Made by a program: the position numbers and the translations under genes | Virus record (IMG/VR): IMGVR_UViG_2778261064_000009 | Location: 1 to 11,293 of that record | Length of the DNA: 11,293 nt | Strand: one strand, 5' to 3' | Source: a virus | Taxonomy: Duplodnaviria > Heunggongvirae > Uroviricota > Caudoviricetes | In this document: positions 1 through 11,293 of the stretch, piece after piece | Position numbering within the stretch: position 1 is the first letter of the stretch | Layout of the letters: the number at the start of each line of letters is the position of its first letter | The notes under the pieces: model-generated | What the model was told of the DNA's origin: nothing | The model's database searches: none | What the model saw: the letters and a program-made list of their open reading frames with translations, nothing else

Positions 1-290
1 TCGCCTTTATCACCTTTCGGACCCTGCGCACCTGCCGGGCCTGCGGCTCCCGTATCCCCTTTAGGTCCCTGTGGCCCTGCCGGGCCTGCGGCTCCCGTAT
101 CCCCTTTTGGTCCCGGTGGCCCCGCCGGGCCTGCAGCTCCCGTATCCCCTTTCGGTCCCTGCGGTCCTGCCGGACCTGTGGCTCCTGTATCCCCTTTTGG
201 TCCCTGCGGCCCCGCCGGGCCTGCAGCTCCTGTATCCCCCTTGTCGCCCTTCGGTCCCTGTGGACCTCCCGGGTCGCCCTGCTCACCTTT
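1..290. repeat. Tandem 45-bp repeats (15-aa collagen-like units) inside stf
   Basis: Near-identical 45-bp units start at 40, 85, 130 and 175 (cctgc[g/a]gctcc[c/t]gtatcccc...gccggg), with degenerate copies on either side. On the coding (minus) strand each unit encodes five Gly-X-Y triplets. The array may continue beyond the window start. Confidence 0.75.
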
Positions 291-806
291 CGGGCCGGTA
301 TCCCCCTTATCGCCCTTGTCTCCTTTATCCCCCTTTGGCCCCTGTGGGCCTGTATCACCCTTGTCTCCCTTCTGTCCCTGCGGACCCGTTGCTCCGGTGT
401 CGCCTTTCGGTCCCTGTGGTCCCACCGCCGTTTCCGCTTTCCTCGCCGCTTCCTCTGCCCTGCTGACAGCCGCATCCGCCGCGTCTTCCAGTTTTTTCAG
501 CGACTCAGGGTAATAAGTGCTGTCCTGCTCACGCAGCAAAAACGCATTCAGTGTGCCCGGCTCGTCGTCTGCCATGACGTCAATCTCGCCAGCGCATGCC
601 GGCTGACGGCCTTCCACGCACAGGGTCACACGATAACGCCCCGGCTCAACCTGCATGGTGTAACTGCCTGTTTCCCCTGGCTGACACTCCGCCACCGTGG
701 TGACTATCACCGTCTCACTCGTTCGCGTGGCTTTCAGCTCTATGGTGCAGTCCGGTACCGGTTTTCCTGTACCATCCTTCAGCACACCTGAAATCTGTAC
801 TGACAT
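1..806 (-). CDS. stf: Side tail fibre protein, N-terminal portion with collagen-like Gly-X-Y repeat region; 3' end lies beyond window start
   Basis: ATG at 804-806 on the minus strand, preceded by a G-rich stretch. Translation begins [37 protein letters not shown]..., which matches my recollection of the lambdoid Stf N-terminus ([17 protein letters not shown]...). From about residue 130 it becomes uninterrupted Gly-X-Y triplets ([32 protein letters not shown]...). The frame stays open to position 1. It is absent from the ORF track because there is no stop in the window. Confidence 0.8.
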
Positions 807-7189: not shown

Positions 7190-7530
7190 CAGTTCACCAC
7201 CTGCTCAATCGTACAGCTGAAATCACTGTACCGGGCGTTATCCGTGACGCTCCACTCCCGGCACACCACCCTCACCGTCCGGTTATGTTTCGGCGGTCGC
7301 CACAAAAAGGCACGGTAACCACCATGCCAGGATAAAAATTCATCCAGCCAGCGCCGGGTTGACTCATCCGTCACCCGGAACACCGCCTGAAACGTCTTCA
7401 GTTGAGGATTCAGCCCTGTGGGGCGACGCTGTTCATAACCGTCACCAAACCGTACCCTCGCCACCGACGGTTTCTCACTCACCTGCATCCCTTCACGCGG
7501 GACCAGATGCAGCGTTTTTATCTCAGCCAC
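7189..7530 (-). CDS. M: Minor tail protein M
   Basis: 113-aa ORF containing the motif VARVRFGDGYEQRRPTGLN and ending EQVVN, like lambda gpM as I recall it. The ORF as drawn starts at a GTG (7528-7530) with GGAGGA about 10 nt upstream, overlapping the end of H. The exact start codon is uncertain. Confidence 0.85.
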   Translation of the reverse strand: MAEIKTLHLVPREGMQVSEKPSVARVRFGDGYEQRRPTGLNPQLKTFQAVFRVTDESTRRWLDEFLSWHGGYRAFLWRPPKHNRTVRVVCREWSVTDNARYSDFSCTIEQVVN

Positions 7531-10138
7531 TCAGCATTCCTCCGTCACGTCGCATGGACAGCATCACCGCCTGCACCCGCTGGTCAATCAGCTGCACAAG
7601 ACTGCCTGCCGCCTCCGGCCCTATCTGGCCATTAGTCCCGTCATTCTGAATGGCGATATGGTAGACCGGGGAATACACCAGACCCGCACTGCCGTTCATA
7701 CTGCCCACCGCTCGCACACCCAGCGAGCCATCCGCCGCCCGGGTCAGGGGCATAATGGCTTCAGGACCGGCCTCCCCCATCAGTCCCGCCCCTTTTGCAA
7801 AGGCAAAGTACGTGGGCGTATCCACAATACTGTTGCTGTACGCACTCAGGTTTGCCGAGGTATACACGCCGCCTTTTGCATTGGCCACCGCCCCGCCCAG
7901 CCAGTCACCAATGCTGCCGAGAAATCCTCCCGCACCGGACATACCGTTTGCCGCCGTCTTAATTCCGTTGACAATCGCGGCATTCATAAGAACTTTTGAT
8001 ATTTCCTGCAGCACTGATGAGGCCCAGCTGCGCCATTCCACTTTATTTCCGTTCAGCATCTCCGTGATGTTATTCACCATCCCTGAGATACCCTCCGTCG
8101 CAAGCTGTGCTGCCTGTGAGGCGTAATCGGACGCATTATCCACCCAGTTACTGAACCCCTCCTGCAGCCCTTTCTGCCAGTCCGCACGCTGCACATCCGA
8201 TTCGGCATAAAAGGCTTCCTGCTCTTTCAGACGTTCACTCAGATACTGTGCATTCTGCGCCAGAGCCTGTCTGTAAAAATCCTCACTGATATCCCCGGTC
8301 TGATACTGAGACTGAAGGTCCGCATCCTTCTGGCGGAAGCTGTCGCGGATCTGCTGCAACTCCCGCATGCGTTCTCTGGCTCGTTCCCCCTGCCCGTACC
8401 CCAGCAGTTCAGCATCATTCGACGCACGCGCAGCCGCATTCTCATTCTTCAGTGTCTCTTCCCGGGATCGCAACTGTTCCCGGATTTTTTGCTGGTCAAT
8501 CAGGGCCGCATTACGCAGCAGCTCCTGCTTCTGCATCTCCGTCAGGGTTTTCAGTTCGCCCTGCGCAGTCTGGTATTTCAGCTTCGCCAGCTCTGTATTC
8601 TGCCCCACCAGTGCCAGTTGCTCTTTCTGCTGCTTCAGCAGCCGGGAAAAACTGTCTTCCGCTTTTTCCGTCTCTGATTTTCCACCCCGGGATTTGGGTT
8701 TATTCGCCTCGTTATTGCGCCAGGCTTCCAGGGCATTACTGATATAACGCTGTCTCGCCTCCTGATACGGATCACCCACAAAACCGAGGTCATCCGCCGC
8801 ATACCCCAGCCGGACACGCTCTTTTTCTTCCCCTTTCAGTCTGGACAGGGCCAGCTCACGCTCTGTTTTTGTCAGGGCACTCTGCTGTTTATCATCCAGA
8901 GTGGCCTGTGGCAGCCGTAACGGCACATTCACCAGTCCCTGCCGCTGCTGAAGCAGTTCATTACCCAGCCCCAGCAGACGGTTGAATTCCGTATGCTGAC
9001 CATTCATAACCAGCATGGACTGGTACACCTTATTCTGCTCTGCCGCCTGCTGACGAATTAACGCCACACGACGGTCTTCCAGCCCGGCAAGCACATCCTG
9101 AATGGACTGCGCTTTTTCCTGCATCTGTGCCAGACGGGACTGCTCAACGGCAAGCTGCTCTGTTGCCTGAGCAAGCCCTTCCGTTACGGTCTTCACCGAG
9201 GTCAGATGGTTTATCATGAATCCGTCACCGGTCGTCCAGCCCGGGTTCGCCAGAACATACTGATATCCTGCGATTTTTTCCTGCAGGGATTTCACCCGAC
9301 TGGCCTGTTCATCAATCAGCCGGTTCTGCTCTGTCAGCGCCGCCCGTGTTCGTCCTTCATTATCTGAGGCTTCAGGCAAAGACATTGACGGCGTTTTATG
9401 CGCGATTTCATCTATCGTCAGTGCATACTGGCGCGCAGACTCCCTGGCCTGCTCCTGATTCTGGTACAGCGTGTACCACGCTGCAGCCCCCAGCATCACC
9501 AGTCCGGGTACGCCACCAACCAGCCCCAGCGCACCGCTCATCAGACGTGAGCCCACCGCCGTTGTACTGTTCAGCGCATTCTGGGCGGCGCTTCTGGCAG
9601 CAATATTTCTGTTCAGGCGTTCCTGTGTGGCCGCCAGACGGGCCTCTGCAGCAATCTGCATCTCCGTCCCGCGGGCTGCCGCCACGGCCTGCTGAGCACG
9701 GTACACGGCTGCCCTTGCCCGCGCCGTGGCAATCTGCGTTCCCCTGAACTGTGCTTCCGCCAGTGCCACTTCATTACGTGCTGCCGTCACAAGTCCTGCC
9801 GTGGCAGACACCGCTCCGGAGGCCATATTGCCAAAGTACCGGGCAACCCCGACGGCAACCAGCGCGCCCACGGCTGTTGCCACATTATCAATCTGTCCGG
9901 CAACACCGTTCAGCATGCCGGAGAGCGTTTTTGTCACCCCGCTGGCCTCATTCGCACCGCCCACCCAGGCCATAAAGGCGTTTTCCACCTTTGTGATACT
10001 ACTGGAAACCGTTTCCGGCATGGCCGCATATTCATCACGTAATATCCCCAGCTGGCTGATTAACGCGGGGACCACTTTATCCGCTGTCAGTTTTCCGTCA
10101 TCCGCCATTGCCTTCAGATCTTTACGGGCCACGCCCAT
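7523..10138 (-). CDS. H: Tail tape measure protein H
   Basis: Long Ala/Gln/Glu-rich, coiled-coil-like ORF with a hydrophobic segment (LGLVGGVPGLVMLGAAAWYTLYQNQ) and a C-terminus (HIAIQNDGTNGQIGPEAAGS...RRDGGMLSG) resembling lambda gpH as I recall it. The ORF track starts at a TTG at 10276, but the first 46 codons look non-coding (His/Pro-rich, poor codon character). I place the start at the first ATG (10136-10138, MGVARKDLKAMADDGKL...); the ATG at 10106-10108 is an alternative. Neither has a strong RBS. Confidence 0.8.
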   Translation of the reverse strand: MGVARKDLKAMADDGKLTADKVVPALISQLGILRDEYAAMPETVSSSITKVENAFMAWVGGANEASGVTKTLSGMLNGVAGQIDNVATAVGALVAVGVARYFGNMASGAVSATAGLVTAARNEVALAEAQFRGTQIATARARAAVYRAQQAVAAARGTEMQIAAEARLAATQERLNRNIAARSAAQNALNSTTAVGSRLMSGALGLVGGVPGLVMLGAAAWYTLYQNQEQARESARQYALTIDEIAHKTPSMSLPEASDNEGRTRAALTEQNRLIDEQASRVKSLQEKIAGYQYVLANPGWTTGDGFMINHLTSVKTVTEGLAQATEQLAVEQSRLAQMQEKAQSIQDVLAGLEDRRVALIRQQAAEQNKVYQSMLVMNGQHTEFNRLLGLGNELLQQRQGLVNVPLRLPQATLDDKQQSALTKTERELALSRLKGEEKERVRLGYAADDLGFVGDPYQEARQRYISNALEAWRNNEANKPKSRGGKSETEKAEDSFSRLLKQQKEQLALVGQNTELAKLKYQTAQGELKTLTEMQKQELLRNAALIDQQKIREQLRSREETLKNENAAARASNDAELLGYGQGERARERMRELQQIRDSFRQKDADLQSQYQTGDISEDFYRQALAQNAQYLSERLKEQEAFYAESDVQRADWQKGLQEGFSNWVDNASDYASQAAQLATEGISGMVNNITEMLNGNKVEWRSWASSVLQEISKVLMNAAIVNGIKTAANGMSGAGGFLGSIGDWLGGAVANAKGGVYTSANLSAYSNSIVDTPTYFAFAKGAGLMGEAGPEAIMPLTRAADGSLGVRAVGSMNGSAGLVYSPVYHIAIQNDGTNGQIGPEAAGSLVQLIDQRVQAVMLSMRRDGGMLSG

Positions 10139-10165
10139 ACCCGCAGCCAGTGCACGTGTGGGGTA

Positions 10166-10308
10166 GTGATCAATTCTGGGCGGGGTTAGTGCAGCCTGGT
10201 AGAACCTGCAAGCCTTGTGTGGCGCGGGGTGTGGTGATTTAGTGTGATTCTGGGCGGTTTTGTGAGAAATGACCAAAAACGCTTTTTTTTGCGCTTTTTT
10301 CTGGGCGC
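10166..10308. repeat. Three direct copies of TTCTGGGCG in the non-coding leader upstream of H
   Basis: Copies at about 10175-10183, 10248-10256 and 10299-10307. The first two share an extended match (GTGAT[caa]TTCTGGGCGG). A 9-mer recurring three times in about 150 bp is very unlikely by chance. Confidence 0.5.
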
Positions 10309-10468
10309 TTTTGATCTGGTTCTGCTACAAACTTAACGGGTTTTAAATGCTTTTAAAAAGTGTTTTATCCTTGCCCGTTTTCCTCAAGTTGTTCTCATCT
10401 GTTGTGTTCGGTTTTGTTGTGGTTATTGCTGATTAGCTAACAGCACACGCCCCGCCAAAACGAGGCGC

Positions 10469-11095
10469 TTATGCTGATTTCTTGTTTATAGGCTTAGTTT
10501 TTTGCTCCGGTGTGACGGGAACGCGATCACCTGGTGTTCCTGCTCGGATACAGGATTTGGCGCGTTGCAAAATCTCTTTGTCGGTTTCTTCATTACCAGC
10601 CAATGCCACGCAAATGGCCTCTTTTAGAGAGTCCCTTATGTTTAAGTTACGTATAACAGTTTCTATGTCTGTTTCTACTGACGTAGCCAGCCGATTCAAA
10701 ATCCCTTTTACACCGATTTCTGATGCTGCTATCGCTAACGCTTTTCGATCCTTACTACTTACAAATCCTAATAATGAAACGATTAACGCAACAGAATCAT
10801 CGTTACAATCGTACTTTGGTTCGCTTTCTTCATAATCATTCGAATAATCTCCTTGTGGTTGTTCTCCTGTAAGTAGCCACATAAGTGAAACGCCACAGGC
10901 ATCGGCAACCCTTGCTGCGCTATCAATGGTTGGGTAACTATCTCCCCTTAGGTATTTCCTGACAGATGCTTCAGATAAGCCACTACGGCGAGCAATCTCG
11001 CTTTTGTTTAGCCCCCCCATCGCTTTTTCCAGCCTTTCGCCAAAGCGTACTATTTGCTCATTATGAAAAGTACGATCATGTTTAATTGATGTCAT
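10469..11095 (-). CDS. XRE-family (Cro/CI-type) helix-turn-helix transcriptional regulator with an unassigned C-terminal domain
   Basis: 208-aa ORF with ATG at 11093-11095 and RBS GGAGA about 9 nt upstream. Residues about 25-80 (LNKSEIARRSGLSEASVRKYLRGDSYPTIDSAARVADACGVSLMWLLTGE) fit the HTH_XRE pattern. The C-terminal roughly 130 aa have no motif I recognise, and there is no obvious S24/LexA-type Ser-Lys peptidase signature. Hand-counted samples give about 35-45% GC, well below the flanking tail genes. Confidence 0.75.
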   Translation of the reverse strand: MTSIKHDRTFHNEQIVRFGERLEKAMGGLNKSEIARRSGLSEASVRKYLRGDSYPTIDSAARVADACGVSLMWLLTGEQPQGDYSNDYEESEPKYDCNDDSVALIVSLLGFVSSKDRKALAIAASEIGVKGILNRLATSVETDIETVIRNLNIRDSLKEAICVALAGNEETDKEILQRAKSCIRAGTPGDRVPVTPEQKTKPINKKSA

Positions 11096-11277
11096 AGCGT
11101 ACTATTCTCCAAATCTCATTGATAAACAAAGAAAATTTTCACAAGTCGTACTTTTGTATCAATTTCAACAAAAGTACGATTATTTTCTTGACTTCGTACT
11201 TTAGTGCGATCTATCCTTTATCACATTCGATAATCGAATTTGATTATCGAATTCGATAAACGTGAGAGGATCACACA
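11096..11277. promoter_or_regulatory. Divergent promoter/operator region between the XRE regulator gene and a plus-strand gene
   Basis: Perfect 11-bp inverted repeat TCGTACTTTTG-N12-CAAAAGTACGA (11146-11179). Related half-sites (AAAGTACGA / TCGTACTTT) lie at about 11066-11077 and 11190-11200. A sigma70-like promoter on the plus strand (TTGACT 11188-11193, about 18 bp spacer, TATCCT 11212-11217) is followed by two adjacent palindromes, ATTCGATAATCGAAT (11226-11240) and TTATCGAATTCGATAA (11243-11258), then RBS GAGAGGA (11262-11268) and ATG 11278. Confidence 0.6.
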
Positions 11278-11293
11278 ATGCAGTTGTTGAGAC
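11278..11293 (+). CDS. 5' end of an unidentified plus-strand gene divergent from the XRE regulator (truncated by window end)
   Basis: ATG at 11278 with the RBS GAGAGGA ending about 9 nt upstream, downstream of the predicted promoter and operators. Only about 5 codons (MQLLR) are visible, so the product is unknown. Confidence 0.35.

What the first reader, a model, noticed from the sequence alone, without database searches (positions are those of the whole stretch)
10469..11095. XRE-HTH regulator with a roughly 130-aa C-terminal domain of unrecognised family
The N-terminal HTH is canonical, but the C-terminal two-thirds (DYSNDYEESEPKYDCNDDSVALIVSLLGFVSSKDRKALAIAASEIGVKGILNRLATSVETDIETVIRNLNIRDSLKEAICVALAGNEETDKEILQRAKSCIRAGTPGDRVPVTPEQKTKPINKKSA) shows no LexA/CI-type S24 peptidase motif and nothing else I can assign. 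It could be a signal-sensing or oligomerisation domain that makes the switch respond to something other than RecA-mediated cleavage, such as infection sensing. The C-terminal tail is Lys/Pro-rich.
Basis: partly seen in the sequence, partly recalled or inferred. Interest (0 to 1): 0.5.

Follow-up and report, generated by a model that had tools for sequence, protein, structure and literature searches.

The report
Mu-like prophage repressor with unclassified tail domain
The gene is the immunity repressor at the left end of a Mu-like transposable prophage that has jumped into the tail gene of another prophage; its unclassified C-terminal part is a small helical domain plus a lysine-rich tail that most likely does what the same region does in the phage Mu repressor, which makes it a modest new variant of a known kind of switch protein.

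Summary
Window 10469-11095 (minus strand) encodes a 208-aa protein with an XRE/CI-type HTH (about residues 17-79). The C-terminal 130 aa have no Pfam, NCBIfam, PDB or S24-peptidase match.

The context settles what it is. The gene is the c-type repressor at the left end of a Mu-like transposable prophage. That end (10157/10158) interrupts a lambdoid tape-measure gene. In E. coli STEC316 the same gene (97.8% nt) is followed divergently by Ner-like, MuA-like and MuB-like genes and a full Mu-type myovirus, inserted elsewhere.

Four conserved AAAGTACGA operators overlap the divergent promoters.

The C-terminal region is a rare module: 46 clusters among 1.84 billion proteins. It consists of a disordered linker, five helices and a disordered tail ending KKSA. 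It occurs behind XRE/CI-type HTH domains or behind Mu-type winged-helix domains, and it was paired with a Ner-type gene in every locus with readable neighbours.

It aligns colinearly but weakly with the Mu repressor's leucine-rich domain and ClpX-recognition tail (…VKKAV). hhalign E is 0.004-0.02.

Most likely function: oligomerisation plus a protease-controlled, RecA-independent tail. This is inferred, not shown. It is a new variant of a known kind, of modest interest.

The parts
10469..11095 (-). Repressor gene (208 aa plus stop), the c-type immunity repressor of a Mu-like transposable prophage
   Evidence: ORF list. PHROG 3037 full-length match, E 1.9e-33. Same gene at the left end of an intact Mu-like prophage in STEC316.
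10859..11047 (-). Residues 17-79: XRE/CI-type helix-turn-helix DNA-binding domain
   Evidence: Pfam HTH_3 and Phage_CI_repr. pLDDT 86-90, five short helices. Weak match to the 434 repressor DBD.
10796..10858 (-). Residues 80-100: acidic, variable, disordered linker
   Evidence: pLDDT below 50 for residues 81-97. 5-33% identity among relatives whose HTH is 62-97% identical.
10676..10795 (-). Residues 101-140 (CTD-a): two helices, motif L..L...[ED]D...L....IG[IV]KG[IV]L. Diverges together with immunity type. Proposed self-association determinant.
   Evidence: Helices 101-110 and 114-137. 20% identity in P0014/15/17 while the downstream part is 71-91% identical. Aligns to the Mu Rep LEPDEARKALKLLSKGGLLAL block.
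10541..10675 (-). Residues 141-185 (CTD-b): three helices, motif IRxLNIRESLKxA…LAGNEETD+EIL. Conserved across immunity types.
   Evidence: Helices 144-149, 155-165 and 169-185. Invariant columns. 71-82% identity in mosaic relatives.
10472..10540 (-). Residues 186-208: disordered Pro/Lys-rich tail ending TPEQ…KKSA-COOH. Proposed protease-recognition and regulatory tail.
   Evidence: pLDDT below 50. K205, K206 and A208 are invariant in 18 homologues. All 45 family representatives counted have K/R in the last 6 residues and a small final residue. Compare Mu Rep …PQEVKKAV and MuA …RRKKAI.
11194..11202 (-). Operator site AAAGTACGA, inside the spacer of the rightward early promoter
   Evidence: Exact motif. 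Position and orientation conserved in Citrobacter and Edwardsiella relatives.
11171..11179 (+). Operator site AAAGTACGA. Forms a perfect 12-nt inverted repeat with 11146-11157.
   Evidence: (I6).
11146..11154 (-). Operator site AAAGTACGA, inside the spacer of the leftward (repressor) promoter
11067..11075 (+). Operator site AAAGTACGA, 20 nt inside the repressor coding sequence
   Evidence: Invariant ATCGTACTTTTCAT block.
10809..10817 (-). Fifth, intragenic AAAGTACGA copy in the variable linker coding region
   Evidence: Exact in Citrobacter, one mismatch in STEC316 and Edwardsiella. Function uncertain.
11188..11217 (+). Candidate early promoter Pe (TTGACT-18-TATCCT) driving ner, A and B
   Evidence: Consensus scan. 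The number of promoter-like sites is not above chance, so the assignment rests on position and the overlapping operator.
11135..11162 (-). Candidate repressor promoter (TTGATA-16-TG-GAAAAT)
   Evidence: Consensus scan.
11218..11262 (.). Three 13-bp-spaced palindromic repeats (TTATCGAATTCGATAA type) between Pe and ner. Candidate Ner operators.
   Evidence: D2, I1, I3, I21. Largely conserved in relatives.
11279..11293 (+). First 5 codons of the divergent Ner-like gene (runs off the window)
   Evidence: STEC316 orthologue is 89 aa, Pfam HTH_35 E 1.1e-19.
10157..10468 (+). Left end (attL) of the transposable prophage, with four TTCTGGGCG[GC]TTTTG-like repeats at 10174, 10248, 10299 and 10402. Candidate transposase-binding sites.
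   Evidence: Homology with STEC316 starts at 10157. The window leaves the intact tape-measure sequence after T10157. Repeats (D1). Inverted copies at the STEC316 right end, which finishes …GTTACA.
7523..10157 (-). 5'-truncated lambdoid tape-measure gene. This is the insertion target, not part of the repressor system.
   Evidence: Pfam TMP_3 matched only from profile position 124 of 192, plus Phage_HK97_TLTM and Tape_meas_lam_C. Intact in 1234 E. coli genomes.

Best explanation
The protein is the lysogeny (c-type) repressor of a Mu-like transposable myovirus prophage. SHOWN: the gene lies about 310 bp inside the prophage's left end and is transcribed divergently from a Ner-like gene. In intact copies that gene is followed by MuA-like transposase and MuB-like ATPase genes. 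INFERRED, strong: the XRE/CI-type HTH binds a set of 9-bp AAAGTACGA operators. They lie at -107, -84, -59 and +20 relative to its ATG, overlap the candidate early promoter and its own promoter, and are phylogenetically footprinted. INFERRED, moderate: the helical C-terminal domain (residues 101-185) oligomerises the protein so that the dispersed operators are bound cooperatively. Its first half (CTD-a) varies with immunity type and probably sets self-association specificity. Its second half (CTD-b) and the tail are a conserved common module. INFERRED, weaker: the disordered Lys-rich tail ending KKSA-COOH works like the C-terminal tail of the phage Mu repressor. That would make it a normally masked determinant for a host AAA+ protease, most likely ClpXP, whose exposure leads to repressor loss and derepression. 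Induction would then be RecA-cleavage-independent. The architecture is that of Mu Rep with the Mu winged-helix DNA-binding domain replaced by an XRE HTH.
For: Identity and context. The same gene (97.8% nt) lies at the left end of a complete Mu-like prophage in STEC316: Ner HTH_35, Mu-transpos_C/rve transposase, AAA ATPase, Mor, Mu-type head genes, sheath, baseplate. The element sits in different targets: tape measure here, an Stx2e-phage holin there. The STEC316 right end finishes in CA and carries inverted copies of the left-end repeat motif. Distant family members P0057, P0064, P0065 and P0013 lie next to a Mu transposase; in P0057, P0064 and P0065 the divergent neighbour matches Ner-type HTH_35, while for P0013 no HTH_35 hit is on record.

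Operators. There are 5 exact AAAGTACGA copies, all within 10809-11202. Allowing 1 mismatch gives 7 matches against 1.2 expected, and 0 of 200 shuffles reach 7. Position and orientation are conserved in relatives with 70% and 56% protein identity, while the spacers diverge. The sites fall inside the promoter spacers.

CTD. It is all-helical with disordered flanks. There is no S24, Pfam or PDB match. The family is small, 46 clusters among 1.84e9. It is fused either to XRE/CI HTH domains or to Mu-type winged-helix DBDs (P0054/56/63/65, E 1e-16 to 1e-18 against a Mu Rep N-terminal profile; precomputed Pfam PF02316).

Similarity to Mu Rep. The alignment to the Mu Rep CTD is colinear to the C-terminus: hhalign score 22, E 0.0044, 89 columns, 0 of 120 shuffles.

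Tail. KK at positions -4/-3 with small or aliphatic residues at -2/-1 is seen in this protein (NKKSA), Mu Rep (VKKAV) and MuA (RKKAI). A basic tail with a small last residue is present in 45 of 45 representatives.

Mosaicism. In P0014/15/17, CTD-b plus tail are 71-91% identical but CTD-a only 20%.

Literature. Mu Rep is degraded by ClpXP via a conformationally masked C-terminal motif (PMC10584840, citing Laachouch 1996 and Defenbaugh & Nakai 2003). ClpX C-motif 2 is modelled on the MuA tail (PMC3983244).

No SOS route seen. There is no LexA box in the intact prophage.
Against: Sequence similarity between this CTD and the Mu Rep CTD is weak. With a broader 43-sequence profile the hhalign score falls to 17.2 (E 0.021), and 6 of 400 column shuffles and 7 of 300 block shuffles reach it. 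HMM-vs-sequence scores are only 5-8 bits. BLASTP finds nothing. hhalign 'probability' is 2-8%. The tail does not satisfy the published C-motif 2 consensus R/H-x-K/R-K-hydrophobic at its first position. Many family members end in K-x-K-A-G or R-N-V-G, which is only loosely similar. This phage's own transposase lacks a MuA-like RRKKAI tail (…NLKKDGTNNR), so ClpX involvement in this phage has no independent hint. The AlphaFold model of the CTD has low pTM (0.25-0.33). Fold searches were uninformative, so oligomerisation is inferred from operator layout and analogy, not from structure. No experiment exists for this family.
Confidence: 0.6

Rival explanations
1. The C-terminal domain is a docking site for a phage- or host-encoded antirepressor, or for a small-molecule signal. 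This would resemble S24-less repressors such as coliphage 186 CI (Tum) or the Gifsy repressors, which are inactivated by binding rather than by proteolysis. The tail would be incidental or would modulate DNA binding.
For: The repressor lacks a peptidase domain, as antirepressor-controlled repressors do. CTD-b and the tail are conserved across heteroimmune variants. A common trans-acting partner of any kind, not only a protease, would explain that. The early region of the intact prophage holds many small ORFs of unknown function.
Against: No LexA box (CTGT-N8-ACAG) occurs anywhere in the intact prophage, so the usual SOS-controlled antirepressor layout is absent. No annotated antirepressor gene is present. 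The conserved terminal KKxA in a disordered tail looks like a C-terminal degron rather than a folded interface. The transposable-phage precedent, Mu, uses proteolysis (PMC10584840).
Confidence: 0.2
2. The C-terminal region is only an oligomerisation or spacer domain with no regulatory role. The prophage would be induced by dilution or transcriptional shut-off of the repressor, or not at all. The basic tail would contribute non-specific DNA contacts.
For: Multiple dispersed operators require cooperativity, which is enough to explain a conserved helical domain. Lys-rich tails often make non-specific DNA contacts. The similarity to the Mu Rep tail is weak.
Against: The very last residues (K205, K206, A208) are invariant in 18 homologues, while the preceding 15 residues vary. 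The free C-terminal position of the motif is kept across all 45 representatives counted. This is typical of C-terminal recognition signals, not of non-specific DNA-binding tails.
Confidence: 0.15
3. The protein is an infection-sensing or defence regulator, or a toxin-antitoxin-type HTH antitoxin, unrelated to prophage immunity.
For: HTH_3 proteins with unknown C-termini are common in defence and TA loci. There are weak PADLOC hits to RmrA and CapH.
Against: The PADLOC hits cover only HTH residues 17-80 at E>=1e-4. In every locus with readable neighbours the partner is a Ner-type gene and/or Mu transposition genes, not a toxin or defence effector. The operators overlap the promoter of the transposition operon.
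Confidence: 0.03

Closest known systems
Phage Mu repressor (Rep / c, gene Mup01; UniProt name 'Repressor protein c')
   Same: Same genomic role and position: the first gene inside the left end, divergent from ner-A-B. Similar length (196 vs 208 aa). Same overall layout of DBD, variable linker, helical Leu-rich region and flexible tail. There is a colinear weak profile match from the LEPDEARKALKLLSKGGL block through E..+EIL to the P.QE…KK tail. The C-termini are KKAV and KKSA. Natural proteins exist that join a Mu-type DBD to this CTD. There is no S24 peptidase.
   Different: The DNA-binding domain is unrelated: an XRE/CI HTH (PF01381/PF07022) instead of the Mu winged-helix PF02316 domain shared with MuA. 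The operators are therefore unrelated to transposase-binding sequences. CTD sequence similarity is at the edge of detection. ClpXP sensitivity is untested.
Repressors of Pseudomonas D3112/B3-like transposable phages (D3112 cI; PaMx73/LESphi4-type 'CI-like repressor')
   Same: Left-end repressors of transposable phages with an XRE/CI-type HTH. These are the best tblastn hits to residues 15-105 (28-40% identity).
   Different: D3112 cI (240 aa) carries a LexA/S24-like C-terminal domain (…GGDSMEP…AKR…). Similarity to our protein stops after the HTH. The CTD studied here is absent from them.
Lambda CI / 434 CI / LexA-type repressors
   Same: N-terminal HTH of the same superfamily (434 repressor E 0.011). 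Divergent promoter and multi-operator layout.
   Different: No S24 autopeptidase domain, no Ala-Gly cleavage site context, and an all-helical CTD. The Cro-like partner is Ner-type (HTH_35).
PHROG 3037 'transcriptional repressor'
   Same: Full-length profile match: residues 7-199 to profile positions 16-187 of 189, E 1.9e-33. The family has already been clustered from phage and prophage genomes.
   Different: PHROG carries only a generic functional label. It gives no domain dissection, mechanism or experimental member.

Membership tests
Phage Mu Rep (c) repressor family | N-terminal Mu-type winged-helix DNA-binding domain (Pfam PF02316, shared with MuA) | tested here: not met
   Pfam gives HTH_3/Phage_CI_repr and no PF02316. 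A Mu Rep N-terminal HMM does not hit it but does hit four other CTD-family members. BLASTP vs Mu Rep gives E 58.
Phage Mu Rep (c) repressor family | First gene inside the left end of a transposable phage, divergent from ner-A-B | tested here: met
   Window left end at 10157/8. STEC316 synteny. Ner = HTH_35, and the transposase has Mu-transpos_C, rve and HTH_Tnp_Mu_1.
Phage Mu Rep (c) repressor family | Leu-rich helical oligomerisation region followed by a flexible C-terminal regulatory tail, homologous to Mu Rep residues ~100-196 | tested here: inconclusive
   hhalign E 0.0044 with 0 of 120 shuffles. With the broader profile, E 0.021 with 6 of 400 and 7 of 300 shuffles. HMM scores are 5-8 bits. 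The register is the same every time.
Phage Mu Rep (c) repressor family | ClpXP-dependent degradation through the C-terminal determinant | not testable with these tools
   Needs protein stability assays. Only the KKxA tail resemblance is available.
LexA / lambda CI S24-peptidase repressors | C-terminal S24 serine peptidase domain (Ser-Lys dyad, beta-rich fold) with RecA-stimulated self-cleavage | tested here: not met
   No Peptidase_S24 hit at E<=1. The model is all alpha-helical. Contrast D3112 cI, which has GDSMEP.
XRE-family HTH (Pfam PF01381 HTH_3 / PF07022 Phage_CI_repr) | Five-helix Cro/CI-type HTH domain above the Pfam gathering score | tested here: met
   HTH_3 scores 36.5 bits against a cutoff of 23. 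Phage_CI_repr scores 26.4 against 22. pLDDT is 86-90.
ClpX C-motif 2 degron (MuA-like C-terminus) | C-terminal R/H-x-K/R-K-hydrophobic (PMC3983244, after Flynn et al. 2003) | tested here: inconclusive
   The tail is …I-N-K-K-S-A. K-K sits at -4/-3 as in MuA (RRKKAI) and Mu Rep (VKKAV). However, there is no R/H at the first position and the last residues are small, not bulky hydrophobic.
Mu-like transposable prophage (the element the gene belongs to) | DDE Mu-type transposase plus MuB ATPase, terminal repeats with TG…CA ends, insertion at unrelated sites with a short target duplication | tested here: met
   Transposase and MuB genes. Two different insertion targets. Inverted terminal motif and a CA-3' right end in STEC316. 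A 5-bp duplication GTCGT fits if the junction T is host-derived. In the window itself only the left end is visible.
PHROG 3037 | Full-length profile match | tested here: met
   E 1.9e-33, residues 7-199.

The most novel reading that the evidence does not exclude
The last ~70 residues (helices 141-185 plus the TPEQ…KKxA tail) are a portable regulatory cassette. Rep/Ner-type immunity modules would exchange it independently of the DNA-binding and self-association parts. It would couple heteroimmune transposable prophages, and some integrase-type elements, to one host signal, probably a ClpXP-type protease whose access is gated by repressor conformation. That would define a second, RecA-independent induction pathway common to a whole group of enterobacterial prophages. 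It would also show that the Mu repressor's C-terminal control module predates, and is separable from, its transposase-like DNA-binding domain.
Probability: 0.3. Interest if true: 0.5.

Novelty: new variant of a known kind. Interest (0 to 1): 0.3.

Why it matters
Induction of Mu-like prophages is poorly understood compared with SOS-inducible lambdoid phages. The only worked example is the Mu repressor's ClpXP-sensitive C-terminal tail. This gene suggests that a similar C-terminal module is used behind at least two unrelated DNA-binding domains. It also suggests that the last ~70 residues are exchanged as a unit among heteroimmune enterobacterial transposable prophages. If confirmed, this gives a sequence signature for RecA-independent, protease-gated prophage switches, namely the Rep-like CTD, a KKxA or KxKAG C-terminus and a Ner partner. 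It would also be a candidate new domain family for Pfam. In practice, the locus explains an annotation trap. The 'regulator next to tail genes' belongs to a second prophage that has inactivated the first by inserting into its tape-measure gene. In the STEC316 relative the same phage type sits inside an Stx2e phage.

Tried and rejected
(1) S24/LexA-like peptidase. No Pfam hit even at E<=1, and the model is all-helical. Rejected.

(3) PDB sequence and profile search with the CTD. Nothing found; best E 0.82.

(4) Direct BLASTP to Mu Rep (E 58) and to D3112 cI (HTH only).

(5) A broader 43-sequence CTD profile weakened rather than strengthened the Mu Rep match. I therefore do not claim homology as shown.

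(6) MuA-like ClpX tail on this phage's transposase. Absent.

(7) LexA boxes in the intact prophage, testing the SOS/antirepressor route. None found.

(8) Defence-system assignment. PADLOC hits only the HTH.

(9) Primary Mu Rep papers (Laachouch 1996; Defenbaugh & Nakai 2003) are not held in the library. What I say about Mu Rep rests on secondary statements in PMC10584840 and PMC3983244 and on my own knowledge. One literature search on 'leucine-rich' returned only irrelevant papers.

(11) The exact first base of the prophage could not be fixed. T10157 is shared with the intact target sequence.
Full report
1. THE OBSERVATION

The ORF at 10469-11095 is real and lies on the minus strand. It has an ATG start and encodes 208 aa with exactly the quoted sequence. 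Pfam recognises only the N-terminus: HTH_3 at residues 27-74 (E 4.9e-9) and Phage_CI_repr at residues 20-79 (E 8.7e-6). NCBIfam gives only sub-threshold HTH hits.

The C-terminal ~130 aa have no recognised family:
- No Pfam hit, even when 11 CTD-only family members are scanned at E<=1.
- No PDB relative by sequence or profile.
- No S24 peptidase signature.

There is one caveat. PHROG 3037 ('transcriptional repressor') matches residues 7-199 at E 1.9e-33, so the whole protein is already clustered among phage proteins, though without any functional dissection.

2. WHAT THE GENE BELONGS TO

The rest of the window is a lambdoid tail module on the minus strand:
- a collagen-like tail-fibre start (806 to 1)
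- Lom (871-1470, Ail_Lom E 5.5e-113)
- J, I, K, L and M
- a tape-measure gene

The repressor is not part of this module. tblastn against phage genomes finds its N-terminal half in repressors located at positions ~550-1100 of Pseudomonas D3112/B3-like transposable phages and of a 33-kb Klebsiella phage.

Eight of 5426 complete E. coli genomes hold a match covering at least 80% of window 10300-11293, at 97-98% identity. In strain STEC316 the gene is followed divergently by:
- an 89-aa HTH_35 (Ner-type) protein
- a 660-aa transposase (Mu-transpos_C, rve, HTH_Tnp_Mu_1)
- an AAA ATPase in the MuB position
- Mor
- Mu-type head genes (DUF935 portal, F, G, protease, gpT)
- a contractile tail with baseplate

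Similarity between the window and STEC316 begins abruptly at window 10157 (TGTGGGGTAGTGATC…). To the left, the window carries tape-measure sequence, whereas STEC316 carries a truncated holin gene of an Stx2e phage. Against an intact copy of the same tape-measure gene (E. coli RM12761, 100% identical up to that point), the window departs after T10157. The remaining tape-measure fragment lacks the first ~123 positions of its TMP_3 domain.

The STEC316 right end finishes …GTTACA and carries inverted copies of the TTCTGGGC motif. That motif is repeated four times in the window's left-end region, at 10174, 10248, 10299 and 10402.

The finding is therefore the immunity repressor at the left end of a Mu-like transposable prophage that transposed into the tape-measure gene of a resident lambdoid prophage.

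3. DNA TARGETS

The 9-mer AAAGTACGA occurs five times exactly in the 11.3-kb window, all between 10809 and 11202. Allowing one mismatch gives 7 matches against 1.2 expected, and 0 of 200 shuffles reach 7. Four copies lie at -107, -84, -59 and +20 relative to the repressor ATG, in alternating orientation. They include a perfect 12-nt inverted repeat, TCGTACTTTTGT-N10-ACAAAAGTACGA.

The same sites occur at the same positions and orientations in two relatives, with one mismatch at the -58 site in Edwardsiella. One is from Citrobacter (70% protein identity) and one from Edwardsiella (56%). The DNA between the sites diverges.

One site lies in the spacer of a candidate rightward promoter (TTGACT-18-TATCCT, 11188-11217). 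Another lies in the spacer of a candidate leftward promoter (11162-11135). The promoter scan is not above chance on its own, so those assignments rest on position.

Between Pe and ner lie three 13-bp-spaced palindromic repeats (11218-11262). They are also largely conserved and are candidate Ner sites.

This is the layout of a Rep/Ner divergent switch. Several dispersed operators spread over ~130 bp call for cooperative, oligomeric binding.

4. ANATOMY OF THE PROTEIN

AlphaFold was run with the 18-sequence family alignment. It gives:
- a confident HTH (residues 18-76, pLDDT 86-90)
- a disordered acidic linker (81-97)
- five helices at 101-110, 114-137, 144-149, 155-165 and 169-185 (pLDDT 55-80)
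- a disordered tail (186-208)

Low pTM (0.25-0.33) suggests that the CTD is not a self-contained globule as a monomer.

In 18 homologues the invariant C-terminal positions include L109, L120, G128, G131, L133, the IR.LNIRESLK block, G167, E169, D172-E174-I175-L176, G189, T195-P196, and the last residues K205, K206 and A208.

5. HOW WIDE THE CTD FAMILY IS AND WHAT IT IS FUSED TO

A CTD-only profile searched exhaustively against 1.84 billion representative proteins found only 46 proteins at E<=1e-3, and 24 at E<=1e-10. Their N-termini fall into two unrelated classes:
- Most carry XRE/CI-type HTH domains, including a distinct Phage_CI_repr-like subtype.
- Four (P0054, P0056, P0063, P0065) carry the Mu-type winged-helix domain. 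E is 1e-16 to 1e-18 against a profile of the Mu Rep N-terminus, and the precomputed Pfam assignment is PF02316.

Genomic context was readable for six members:
- P0057, P0064 and P0065 lie next to HTH_35 and a Mu transposase; P0057 and P0065 also have MuB, Gam and Kil.
- P0065 occurs at two different chromosomal sites.
- P0013 lies near a Mu transposase and an AAA ATPase; no HTH_35 hit is on record for its divergent neighbour.
- P0012 is paired with HTH_35 in a prophage that has lost its A/B genes.
- P0063 is paired with HTH_35 in an integrase-type element.

In five of these six loci, and in STEC316, the divergent partner is a Ner-type gene.

The whole family keeps a basic tail with a small last residue. 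All 45 representatives counted have K/R within the last six residues and end in A, G, S, N or V. Typical endings are KKSA, KKTA, KQKAG, KKSAN and HQKVG.

The gene is also mosaic. Relatives P0014, P0015 and P0017 compare with the window protein as follows:
- HTH: 71% identical
- linker: 10-14%
- helices 101-140: 20%
- helices 141-185: 71-82%
- tail: 87-91%

The last ~70 residues therefore move between immunity types as a unit. The first two CTD helices diverge together with DNA-binding specificity.

6. RELATION TO THE MU REPRESSOR

Mu Rep (196 aa; translated from NC_000929) ends …LPEEKRKEILSKYGIHEQESVVVPSQEPQEVKKAV. The window protein ends …AGNEETDKEILQRAKSCIRAGTPGDRVPVTPEQKTKPINKKSA. MuA ends RRKKAI.

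The evidence for a sequence relationship is mixed:
- BLASTP sees nothing.
- Profile-profile comparison aligns the two C-terminal regions colinearly and essentially end to end. Our residues 103-205 align with Mu 103-194, score 22-24, E 0.004-0.007.
- None of 120 column-shuffled Mu profiles reached that score. Shuffle mean 10.8, SD 2.3, maximum 19.9, with ~10 aligned columns against 89 observed.
- With a broader 43-sequence CTD profile the same register is recovered, but the score drops to 17.2 (E 0.021). It is reached by 6 of 400 column shuffles and 7 of 300 block shuffles.
- HMM-vs-sequence scores are 5-8 bits. They always pick the same two blocks, LEPxE…L…K.G[LIV]..L and E..[KR]EIL…P.QE…KK.

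I conclude that homology of the two CTDs is plausible, roughly even odds, but not demonstrated. The equivalence of role rests on firmer ground: the same position in the same kind of genome, the same architecture, natural chimeras of a Mu-type DBD with this CTD, and the shared KK-x-small C-terminus.

According to PMC10584840 (citing Laachouch et al. 1996 and Defenbaugh & Nakai 2003), the Mu repressor is the one repressor shown to be degraded by ClpXP. This occurs through a C-terminal recognition motif that is conformationally hidden in the repressed state. [quoted passage not shown] The window protein's NKKSA shares KK at -4/-3 but does not meet the full consensus.

7. MECHANISM PROPOSED

- Shown: identity as a transposable-prophage left-end repressor, the HTH, absence of S24, conserved operators overlapping the divergent promoter region, the modular CTD, and the conserved C-terminal residues.
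- Inferred, moderate: helices 101-185 oligomerise the repressor for cooperative binding, with helices 101-140 setting self-association specificity.
- Inferred, weaker: the disordered KKSA tail is a masked degron for a host AAA+ protease, most likely ClpXP, which would give RecA-independent derepression.

Two negative results agree with a non-SOS route but do not prove it. There are no LexA boxes anywhere in the intact prophage, and there is no annotated antirepressor. One caution applies: this phage's transposase lacks a MuA-like tail.

8. RIVALS

- An antirepressor- or ligand-docking domain (confidence about 0.2).
- A purely structural oligomerisation domain with a DNA-contacting tail (about 0.15).
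- A defence or TA regulator (about 0.03). PADLOC matches only the HTH, and the neighbours are always Ner and transposition genes.

9. NOVELTY AND SCORE

The kind of thing, a transposable-phage immunity repressor without a peptidase domain, is known. PHROGs already groups this protein. What is new is the domain-level picture:
- an XRE HTH in place of the Mu winged helix
- a rare, uncurated helical CTD shared with Mu-type-DBD repressors
- a conserved exchangeable C-terminal cassette

I rate it a new variant of a known kind, interest 0.3. The points on the absence of S24 and on an oligomerisation or non-RecA role were right. The context was missed, and infection sensing is unsupported.

Noticed in passing
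window 7523-10157 (-) and 10157-11293: Prophage within a prophage. The Mu-like element's left end interrupts the tape-measure gene of a lambdoid prophage. The apparent 917-aa ORF 7523..10276 is a chimera whose first 40 codons are Mu-like end sequence. The tail gene lacks the first ~123 positions of its TMP_3 domain, so the lambdoid prophage is presumably defective.
   Followed up: yes
window 10157; L001 19860; L015 3634-6633: In all three enterobacterial contexts examined, this phage type sits inside or next to another prophage's genes: the lambdoid tape measure here, an Stx2e-phage holin in STEC316, and next to Phage_TAC_14/PhageMin_Tail genes in Citrobacter portucalensis. This may reflect tolerated insertion into dispensable prophage DNA or a target preference. 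The STEC316 insertion separates stx2e from the rest of the Stx phage's lysis and late region.
   Followed up: partly
window 10174-10188, 10248-10262, 10299-10313, 10402-10416; L004 17233-17274: Four TTCTGGGCG[GC]TTTTG-like direct repeats lie in the 310 bp between the prophage end and the repressor stop codon. Inverted copies lie at the right end of the intact STEC316 copy, which ends …GTTACA. They are candidate transposase (MuA-like) binding sites, analogous to Mu L1-L3 and R1-R3. In STEC316 a 5-bp duplication GTCGT fits only if the junction T is host DNA, so the true first base (10157 or 10158) is ambiguous.
   Followed up: partly
window 11218-11262: Three overlapping 13-bp-spaced palindromic repeats (TTATCACATTCGATAATCG / TAATCGAATTTGATTATCG / TTATCGAATTCGATAAACG) lie between the candidate early promoter and the ner start codon. 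They are largely conserved in the Citrobacter and Edwardsiella relatives. Candidate Ner operators.
   Followed up: partly
window 10809-10817 (-): A fifth exact AAAGTACGA copy lies inside the repressor gene, in the codons of the poorly conserved linker. It is exact in the Citrobacter relative and has one mismatch in STEC316 and Edwardsiella, at the same position (+278). It may be a distal operator for looping, or it may be chance.
   Followed up: partly
L015 (Citrobacter portucalensis JABVAY010000005.1) 1-2818: In this relative the Ner-like gene is followed directly by holin, endolysin, DUF1804 and methylase genes. The transposase A/B genes and the whole early region are missing. It is a deletion derivative that keeps the Rep/Ner switch.
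   Followed up: no
L009/L010 4018-5912: P0063 (Mu-type winged-helix DBD plus this CTD) lies in an element with a tyrosine integrase immediately downstream and a divergent HTH_35 gene. No Mu transposase is present. The Rep/Ner-type immunity module is therefore not confined to transposable phages.
   Followed up: no
window 1-806 (-): Start of a tail-fibre gene ([17 protein letters not shown]…) with a long collagen-like Gly-X-Y repeat ([11 protein letters not shown]…). It runs off the left end of the window. The proline-rich ORFs listed on the plus strand (71-466, 178-513) are mirror-frame artefacts of this repeat.
   Followed up: partly
E. coli genome hits H39-H45 (OkiPb strains): Several E. coli genomes match only 45% of window 10300-11293, in two pieces at 95.7% identity. 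This suggests the same prophage ends with a different repressor allele between them (immunity-region mosaicism). It agrees with the per-region identity pattern seen in P0014/P0015.
   Followed up: no
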